This document shows, piece by piece, positions 22,672 through 22,767 of a DNA stretch of 64,000 bases. The stretch is taken from assembly GCF_050920415.1 (NCBI RefSeq), contig NZ_CP169309.1; one strand, written 5' to 3'. The DNA comes from Escherichia coli (GTDB lineage: Bacteria; Pseudomonadota; Gammaproteobacteria; Enterobacterales; Enterobacteriaceae). Both the position numbers and the translations under genes were made by a program. A model generated the notes under the pieces. That model was not told where the DNA came from. It searched no databases and worked only from the letters and a program-made list of their open reading frames with translations. Positions within the stretch are counted from its first letter, which is position 1. The number at the start of each line of letters is the position of its first letter.

Positions 22672-22741
22672 AGATGTTGTTCTGCCAATGTTATGCCGCT
22701 ACACCCTCAACTTACGTTATCCCAACTTGTGACTGTTATTC

Positions 22742-22767
22742 GGCGCTCTATGGAGCGCCTTTTTTTA
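22742..22767 (+). terminator. Rho-independent terminator of malEFG, convergent with psiE
   Basis: ggcgctc-tatg-gagcgcc hairpin followed by ttttttt; the T-run overlaps the psiE stop codon on the other strand. Confidence 0.75.

What the first reader, a model, noticed from the sequence alone, without database searches (positions are those of the whole stretch)
22672..22764. xylE absent: malG and psiE are directly convergent
In K-12 the xylose/H+ symporter gene xylE lies between malG and psiE. Here the malG stop and the psiE stop are separated by only about 90 bp, which hold a single shared hairpin terminator whose T-run overlaps the psiE stop codon. There is no remnant ORF or scar, so either xylE was precisely deleted or this lineage represents the pre-insertion state.
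Basis: partly seen in the sequence, partly recalled or inferred. Interest (0 to 1): 0.35.

Follow-up and report, generated by a model that had tools for sequence, protein, structure and literature searches.

The report
Empty xylE site between malG and psiE
This Escherichia coli lineage has no xylose/H+ symporter gene (xylE) between malG and psiE; this is a common, already published gene-content difference (about one third of complete E. coli genomes), most likely the original gene order, and the 93-bp gap is the known MalH small RNA with its terminator.

Summary
malG (21781-22671, +) and psiE (22765-23175, -) converge across 93 bp. K-12 has xylE between them. The window lacks a 1797-bp cassette (xylE upstream region, xylE and its terminator), and the breakpoints lie inside T-runs.

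The gap is not just a hairpin. It is the homolog of MalH (22664-22766), the 3'UTR-derived sRNA of malG, and differs from K-12 at 3 of 103 bases.

The same junction occurs in 1786 of 5426 complete E. coli genomes. xylE occurs in 3638, so the two states are essentially complementary and xylE is very probably not elsewhere.

The window lineage is probably cryptic clade I. E. albertii, E. whittamii, two further Escherichia species and most Enterobacteriaceae genera sampled share the xylE-less architecture, with the T-run overlapping the psiE stop.

I therefore read the site as the pre-insertion (ancestral) state, confidence about 0.78. A clean T-run-to-T-run deletion is not excluded: one Citrobacter species nested among xylE+ relatives has an equally clean empty site.

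Published work already reports xylE as gained by the E. coli E/B1/A lineage and absent from strain 042. Ordinary and already known; low interest.

The parts
21781..22671 (+). malG, last gene of malEFG (maltose ABC transporter permease), 296 aa
   Evidence: ORF list and translation. 100% aa identity to K-12 MalG by tblastn. Annotated malG in the 100%-identical genome NZ_CP169399.1.
22664..22766 (+). Homolog of the MalH sRNA (malG 3' end, stop codon and 3'UTR with Rho-independent terminator)
   Evidence: Aligns base for base with K-12 malH b4807 (4242531-4242633) with 3 substitutions, two of them in the terminator loop. Predicted fold is the same as K-12. MalH is described as a 104-nt sRNA in PMC8081044.
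22742..22766 (+). Intrinsic terminator of malEFG/MalH: 7-bp GC-rich stem, 4-nt loop, T7 run
   Evidence: Terminator scan and fold. Conserved in xylE-less Enterobacteriaceae.
22760..22766 (.). Empty xylE site: the T-run where K-12, O157 and O26 carry the 1797-bp xylE cassette. The exact breakpoint is ambiguous within 5 T.
   Evidence: Alignments. K-12 has T7 + cassette + T5, and the window has T7.
22765..23175 (-). psiE (phosphate-starvation-inducible protein), 136 aa; its stop codon overlaps the T-run
   Evidence: Translation, tblastn 99% identity, annotation.

Best explanation
The window shows the xylE-less allele of the malG-psiE locus. This is most likely the original arrangement for the genus Escherichia, and for Enterobacteriaceae generally.

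**How the site works.** malEFG transcription ends at a Rho-independent terminator. The terminator also forms the 3' end of the MalH sRNA. Its T-run runs into the stop codon of the convergent psiE gene.

**What xylE+ strains carry.** E. coli K-12 (phylogroup A), O26 (B1) and O157 (E) carry xylE, and published work assigns its gain to the E/B1/A lineage. In the three sequences examined a 1797-bp cassette sits inside that T-run. It comprises an AT-rich xylE regulatory region, xylE and xylE's own terminator. The cassette's terminator T-run then takes over the position next to the psiE stop.

**The window strain.** It is probably cryptic clade I and, on this reading, never received the cassette. 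By inference from known xylose-transport physiology it depends on the XylFGH ABC transporter for xylose uptake. That system lies outside the window and was not checked here.

**Shown:** the anatomy, the breakpoints, the frequencies and the outgroup states.
**Inferred:** the polarity of the event, MalH expression, and termination behaviour.
For: 1. **Breakpoints.** The window joins the K-12 malH terminator T-run directly to ACTCCC, the psiE 3' end. The missing block is exactly 1797 alignment columns.
2. **Frequency.** The identical 101-bp junction is in 1786 of 5426 complete E. coli genomes and xylE is in 3638, summing to 5424.
3. **Outgroups.** These all have malG and psiE 84-120 bp apart, with the same terminator and a T-run overlapping the psiE stop:
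 - Escherichia: E. whittamii (L003), Escherichia sp. E1V33 (L004), E. albertii (L005), Escherichia sp. MOD1-EC7003 (L053).
 - Other genera: Enterobacter, C. koseri, Trabulsiella, Lelliottia, Cedecea and Phytobacter.
 - Klebsiella and Raoultella have a longer gap (about 190 bp) but the same terminator/stop overlap.
4. **A documented loss leaves a scar.** C. braakii L022 keeps the xylE upstream region, the last codons of xylE and the xylE terminator.
5. **A documented gain exists.** K. oxytoca L068 retains the native terminator plus a ~15-nt duplicate of the psiE 3' end beside the inserted xylE, while K. michiganensis and K. grimontii lack xylE.
6. **Lineage of the window.**
 - It is 94-96% identical to K-12 over 64 kb, arpA-negative and yjaA-positive.
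 - Its junction haplotype is shared at 99% identity or more by only 18 genomes. One of them is 2013C-4282, a published cryptic clade I strain.
7. **Literature.** xylE is listed among genes gained by the EB1A lineage (PMC6896753 text and Table S5). EAEC 042 lacks xylE and grows less well on xylose (PMC2808357).
8. **Count consistency.** 1316 genomes lack arpA and 1786 lack xylE. This fits xylE absence in arpA-negative groups plus an arpA-positive group such as D. It is not a cross-tabulation.
Against: 1. **Clean loss may be possible.** Citrobacter sp. FP75 (L056) has an equally clean T-run junction, yet groups inside the xylE+ C. freundii complex next to C. gillenii.
2. **No foreign flank tract.** xylE+ and xylE- E. 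coli sensu stricto are identical up to the T-run on both sides. They even share the E. coli-specific terminator loop CCAC. A deletion explains this most simply. The flanks are, however, so conserved among Escherichia that a donor tract could be invisible.
3. **xylE is old.** It sits at the same site in E. coli, some Salmonella enterica, the C. freundii complex and K. oxytoca. Its dS is 0.85-1.27, similar to flanking genes. That could mean ancient vertical presence with many losses, although dS is near saturation.
4. **A second xylE lineage.** O26 xylE carries a ~380-nt patch about 6.5% diverged from K-12. This implies a second, Escherichia-level-diverged lineage that carries xylE.
5. **Gaps in sampling.** E. 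fergusonii, E. marmotae and E. ruysiae type genomes were not identified among the loci retrieved.
Confidence: 0.78

Rival explanations
1. Clean deletion. An ancestor of this lineage carried xylE. It lost the whole 1797-bp cassette by illegitimate (slippage or microhomology) recombination between the T-runs of the two co-directional terminators: T7 after malH and T5 after xylE. Alternatively it lost the cassette by homologous replacement with an xylE-less allele from a relative. Either route leaves no scar.
For: - T5-T7 direct repeats bound the cassette in K-12.
- Flanks of xylE+ and xylE- E. coli sensu stricto are identical up to the T-run.
- Citrobacter sp. FP75 (L056) has a clean empty site nested in an xylE+ clade.
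- xylE has genus-level divergence at the same site in four genera.
- The divergent xylE patch in O26 points to a longer xylE history in or near Escherichia.
Against: - Within Escherichia it needs independent identical losses, or spread of the empty allele, in E. albertii, E. whittamii, two further species, clade I and the non-EB1A phylogroups. The alternative is a single gain (PMC6896753).
- The empty architecture is the majority state across more than 15 genera.
- The one loss that left recognisable xylE sequence (C. braakii L022) left a scar.
Confidence: 0.17
2. xylE has moved elsewhere in the same genome by rearrangement, so the strain is not xylE-negative.
For: None found. The source genome outside the window was not read directly.
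Against: - xylE is single-copy in 3638 genomes and the direct junction is in 1786; together they make 5424 of 5426, so the sets are essentially disjoint.
- There is no XylE match in the 64-kb window.
Confidence: 0.01
3. Assembly or sequencing artefact that collapsed the region.
For: None.
Against: - The same junction is in 1786 independent complete genomes.
- A 9.5-kb stretch around the junction (window 18000-27500) is 100% identical to a complete chromosome.
- The outgroups share the architecture.
Confidence: 0.01

Closest known systems
xylE presence/absence polymorphism of E. coli (xylE listed as gained by the EB1A lineage, PMC6896753; absent from EAEC 042, PMC2808357)
   Same: - Same locus and same gene.
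- The window has the xylE-less state that those papers report for non-EB1A strains.
- My counts (33% of complete genomes without xylE) fit that picture.
   Different: - The window is probably cryptic clade I rather than phylogroup D, F, G or B2.
- Those papers work at gene-content level and do not give the breakpoints: a 1797-bp cassette bounded by terminator T-runs.
MalH, the 3'UTR-derived Hfq-associated sRNA of malG in E. coli K-12 (b4807; PMC8081044)
   Same: - Same position: the last 8 nt of malG, the stop codon, the 3'UTR and the terminator.
- 100 of 103 bases identical.
- Same predicted fold.
   Different: - In K-12 the MalH terminator is followed by the xylE promoter region; here it abuts the psiE stop codon.
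- There are three substitutions, one in the body and two in the terminator loop.
- Expression and processing were not tested here.
Bidirectional intrinsic terminators between convergent genes (general concept, from my own knowledge of Term-seq/SEnd-seq literature; not checked in the library)
   Same: One GC-rich hairpin lies between two convergent stop codons. The run of T/A is adjacent to the psiE stop.
   Different: Only the malG strand has hairpin plus U-run. On the psiE strand the hairpin is preceded by an A-run and followed by GAAUAACAG, which is not a U-tract. By sequence it is a one-way terminator.
xylE deletion scar in Citrobacter braakii ATCC 51113 (L022), found here
   Same: Same locus, and xylE coding capacity is absent.
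   Different: C. braakii keeps 383 bp with the xylE upstream region, the last codons of xylE and the xylE terminator. The window keeps nothing of the cassette.

Membership tests
xylE-less (empty-site) allele of the malG-psiE locus | No XylE coding sequence between malG and psiE | tested here: met
   tblastn with K-12 XylE gives no hit in the window. The gap is 93 bp.
xylE-less (empty-site) allele of the malG-psiE locus | Junction is collinear, without gaps, with other xylE-less E. coli | tested here: met
   The 101-bp junction query is covered at 80% or more in 1786 genomes. The 13 xylE-less genomes sampled across the ranking all align over the full 101 bases, at 93-100% identity.
xylE-less (empty-site) allele of the malG-psiE locus | No residue of the cassette (xylE upstream region, 3' codons or xylE terminator) | tested here: met
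   The whole gap aligns to malH. The cassette is a single 1797-column gap. Compare the scar in C. braakii.
xylE-less (empty-site) allele of the malG-psiE locus | The state is ancestral (outgroups share it) | tested here: inconclusive
   Four other Escherichia species and most genera share it. However, E. fergusonii was not sampled, a clean absence is nested in an xylE+ Citrobacter clade, and xylE is old at this site.
MalH sRNA (malG 3'UTR-derived) | Lies at the 3' end of malG and includes the stop codon and 3'UTR | tested here: met
   Window 22664-22766 aligns to K-12 b4807.
MalH sRNA (malG 3'UTR-derived) | Sequence conservation, including the region used for pairing | tested here: met
   3 substitutions in 103 nt. 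I did not map the published seed onto the sequence, so the effect of the one body substitution (G to A at 22700) is unknown.
MalH sRNA (malG 3'UTR-derived) | Rho-independent terminator at the 3' end | tested here: met
MalH sRNA (malG 3'UTR-derived) | Produced by processing of malEFG mRNA, Hfq-associated, and transiently expressed | not testable with these tools
   Needs Northern blot, primer extension or CLASH, as in PMC8081044.
MalH sRNA (malG 3'UTR-derived) | Match to a curated RNA family | tested here: inconclusive
   Rfam 15 scan of 22400-23600 at E<=1 gave no hit in the gap. MalH may simply have no Rfam model.
Bidirectional intrinsic terminator | Hairpin followed by a U-run on both strands | tested here: not met
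   The + strand has T7. On the - strand the stem is followed by GAAUAACAG.
Mobile-element-borne insertion (IS, transposon or integrase) for the xylE cassette | Terminal inverted repeats, target-site duplication, or a recombinase gene | tested here: not met
   No inverted or direct repeats at the cassette ends in K-12 other than the T-runs. The only annotated gene in the cassette is xylE.

The most novel reading that the evidence does not exclude
The T-run between the malG/MalH terminator and the psiE stop codon may be a recurrent gain-and-loss site across Enterobacteriaceae. On this reading, a terminator-bounded xylE cassette has entered and left precisely, several times, in Escherichia, Salmonella, Citrobacter and Klebsiella. 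The terminator T-runs would serve as microhomology. Other small sugar-utilisation islets use the same gap.
Probability: 0.2. Interest if true: 0.4.

Novelty: already known. Interest (0 to 1): 0.12.

Why it matters
It matters little beyond annotation.

- **Strain phenotype.** The strain lacks the low-affinity xylose/H+ symporter, a difference already linked to weaker growth on xylose in strain 042.
- **MalH context.** The known MalH sRNA sits in a different downstream context in about one third of E. coli. It abuts psiE rather than the xylE promoter, which could matter for read-through or antisense effects on psiE.
- **Locus evolution.** The breakpoints and the comparison across genera make this locus a tidy example of a terminator-bounded gene that is polymorphic in four genera.

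Tried and rejected
- **Rfam scan of the gap.** No MalH model matched. It only found sub-threshold REP-like naRNA4 hits downstream of psiE.
- **Recent transfer from Citrobacter, Salmonella or Klebsiella, tested by dS.** xylE dS is 0.85-1.27, about the same as flanking genes. No recent donor is indicated. dS is near saturation and the genera are roughly equidistant, so it cannot separate vertical descent from old transfer.
- **Imported flank tract next to the cassette in E. coli.** None was found. This is uninformative because the flanks barely differ among Escherichia.
- **Search for a donor among XylE homologs.** Clustering at 90% identity lumps E. coli, Salmonella, Citrobacter and K. oxytoca together. 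It did reveal Salmonella xylE at the same site.
- **Metagenome scan for the divergent O26-type xylE patch.** 0 hits.
- **Mobile-element signatures at the cassette ends.** None.
- **Direct phylogroup typing of xylE-less genomes.** The 20-kb flank of U15A did not reach arpA because of a sorbose operon insertion. I used genome counts instead, which are consistent with the literature but are not a cross-tabulation.
- **One paper search** failed on a term that was too short.

Full report
**Observation**

The window has malG at 21781-22671 (+) and psiE at 22765-23175 (-), separated by 93 bp. The only terminator-like site is GGCGCTC-TATG-GAGCGCC at 22742-22759, followed by T7 at 22760-22766. The last two T are part of the complement of the psiE stop codon. 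tblastn with K-12 XylE finds nothing in the 64-kb window.

**Breakpoints**

- In K-12 the malG 3'UTR ends ...GGAGCGCC-T7 and is followed by CTTTCGTCTGC..., the xylE upstream region, xylE and the xylE terminator ...GGCGTGCTGAC-T5.
- That terminator is followed by ACTCCCGC, the 3' end of psiE.
- The window reads ...GGAGCGCC-T7-ACTCCCGC.
- In a MAFFT alignment of ten Escherichia sequences the cassette is a single block of exactly 1797 columns.
- The only repeat at its ends is the T-run. No terminal inverted repeats or longer direct repeats exist, and xylE is the only annotated gene in the cassette.

**What fills the gap**

- The 93 bp, plus the last 8 nt of malG, correspond to the annotated sRNA MalH (K-12 4242531-4242633).
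- There are three substitutions, two of them in the terminator loop. The predicted fold is the same.
- MalH is described as a 104-nt, Hfq-associated, processing-derived sRNA. [quoted passage not shown]
- Rfam gave no hit there.
- On the psiE strand the hairpin follows the stop after an A-run but has no U-run after it. 'Shared terminator' therefore describes geometry, not a demonstrated function.

**Frequency in E. coli**

| Feature | Complete genomes (of 5426) |
|---|---|
| Direct junction, 1.5-kb query covered >=80% | 1786 |
| Direct junction, 101-bp query covered >=80% | 1786 |
| xylE present, almost always single-copy | 3638 |
| Sum of the two states | 5424 |

The two states are essentially mutually exclusive, so xylE is not hiding elsewhere. 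This was not checked directly in the source genome. A 9.5-kb stretch around the junction (window 18000-27500) is 100% identical to NZ_CP169399.1, strain MFDS1022581.

**Lineage of the window**

- The window is collinear with K-12 4,198,000-4,265,280 at only 94.3-96.4% identity.
- It lacks arpA and has yjaA.
- It is 92-95% identical to E. whittamii, E. albertii and two unnamed Escherichia species over malF-yjbH.
- Its junction haplotype is shared at 99% or more by only 18 genomes. One is 2013C-4282, listed as a cryptic clade I strain in PMC10100065.
- I conclude it is probably cryptic clade I.

**Outgroups**

A scan of species-representative genomes with PsiE returned 80 loci.

- **Empty site.** malG and psiE are directly convergent (84-120 bp), with the same terminator and a T-run overlapping the psiE stop.
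  - In Escherichia: E. whittamii, Escherichia sp. E1V33, E. albertii and Escherichia sp. MOD1-EC7003.
  - In other genera: Enterobacter, C. koseri, Trabulsiella, Lelliottia, Cedecea and Phytobacter.
  - Klebsiella and Raoultella have a longer gap (about 190 bp) with the same terminator/stop overlap.
- **xylE present** between the two genes in eight C. freundii-complex loci and in K. oxytoca. Some Salmonella enterica also carry it (CP022117).
- **Left boundary differs.** It varies among Citrobacter, Salmonella (26 extra nt), E. coli (64 extra nt) and K. oxytoca.
- **Evidence of a gain.** K. oxytoca keeps the native terminator and a ~15-nt duplicate of the psiE 3' end next to the insert. This is the signature of an insertion into an empty site.
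- **Evidence of a loss.** C. braakii shows a loss with a 383-bp scar.

**Polarity**

Parsimony within Escherichia favours the empty site as ancestral: one gain against seven or more identical losses. So does the family-wide conservation of the empty architecture. This agrees with published gene-content reconstructions that list xylE as gained by the EB1A lineage (PMC6896753). Genome counts fit too: 1316 genomes lack arpA and 1786 lack xylE.

I keep a substantial rival for four reasons:
1. Citrobacter sp. FP75 has a clean empty site although it groups inside the xylE+ C. freundii complex.
2. xylE+ and xylE- E. coli sensu stricto are identical right up to the T-run on both sides.
3. xylE divergence between genera equals that of the flanks.
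4. O26 xylE has a 6.5%-diverged patch, implying another xylE-bearing lineage at Escherichia-level distance.

A metagenome scan for that patch found nothing, and E. fergusonii could not be examined.

**Known or new**

The absence of xylE from part of E. coli and its phenotypic consequence are published (PMC2808357; PMC6896753). MalH is published (PMC8081044). The added value here is:
- the exact breakpoints;
- the frequency (33%);
- the probable clade I assignment;
- the observation that the same gap is polymorphic for xylE in four genera and carries other sugar-utilisation cargo in others.

**Verdict:** a real feature, correctly read, ordinary and already known.

Noticed in passing
window 40446-40466 (arpA site) and 47201-47584 (yjaA): arpA is absent: about 2.5 kb of K-12 (4,220,310-4,222,797) has no counterpart in the window. 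yjaA is present at 97% identity. Together with 94-96% identity to K-12 over the whole window, this fits Escherichia cryptic clade I. Of 5426 genomes, 1308 share an arpA-less junction.
   Followed up: partly
window 23275-23422: REP-type palindromic elements lie between psiE and yjbT (sub-threshold Rfam naRNA4 hits). RefSeq annotates a 47-aa 'hypothetical protein' across them (23321-23464). They explain why BLAST of this region hits a median of 7 places per genome.
   Followed up: partly
L068 (K. oxytoca), about 8089-8330 in locus coordinates: Beside the inserted xylE, the native malG terminator is followed by a ~15-nt duplicate of the psiE 3' end (ATTCGCGTTTCAG) and about 165 nt of unknown origin. 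This is the signature of an independent xylE insertion. K. michiganensis and K. grimontii have the empty site.
   Followed up: partly
L022 (C. braakii ATCC 51113) 6412-6796: A 383-bp malG-psiE gap is an xylE deletion scar. It keeps the xylE upstream region, roughly the last 30 codons of xylE and the xylE terminator.
   Followed up: yes
L056 (Citrobacter sp. FP75) 6409-6520: A clean empty xylE site occurs in a species that groups within the xylE+ C. freundii complex, closest to C. gillenii (90-92% in flanking genes). This suggests a precise loss or an allele replacement.
   Followed up: partly
L087 (E. coli O26 RM8426), xylE nt ~468-850 (locus ~4968-5350): This patch is about 6.5% diverged from K-12 and O157 xylE, with derived changes on both sides. 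It was evidently imported from an unsampled xylE-bearing lineage. A 26-nt exact pattern from it had no hit in the metagenome collection.
   Followed up: partly
L089 (Salmonella enterica CP022117) 4658-6521: Some S. enterica carry xylE (92% aa identity to K-12) between malG and psiE as well. There are 26 extra nt at the left boundary, and no T-run at the psiE side.
   Followed up: partly
L040 6412-11146; L058 6412-8188; L038 4522-10521; L036 4068-4788: Other Enterobacteriaceae carry different cargo in the same malG-psiE gap, so it looks like a small-islet hotspot.
- L040: PTS EIIC/EIIB, glucosamine-6-P isomerase-like, asparaginase-2 and LacI-type regulator.
- L058: LysR regulator plus HAD hydrolase.
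- L038: PTS, GFO/IDH/MocA oxidoreductase, DUF7916 and GntR regulator, next to xylE.
   Followed up: partly
window 22674-22808 (+): A 44-aa ATG ORF starts just after the malG stop, runs through MalH and continues antisense into psiE. It is probably spurious and was not examined.
   Followed up: no
window 3978-4250, 51044-51151, 62101-62244: These short stretches do not align to K-12 in an otherwise collinear comparison. They fall in the yjbM region, the rrnE spacer and near the hemE/nfi boundary. Not examined.
   Followed up: no
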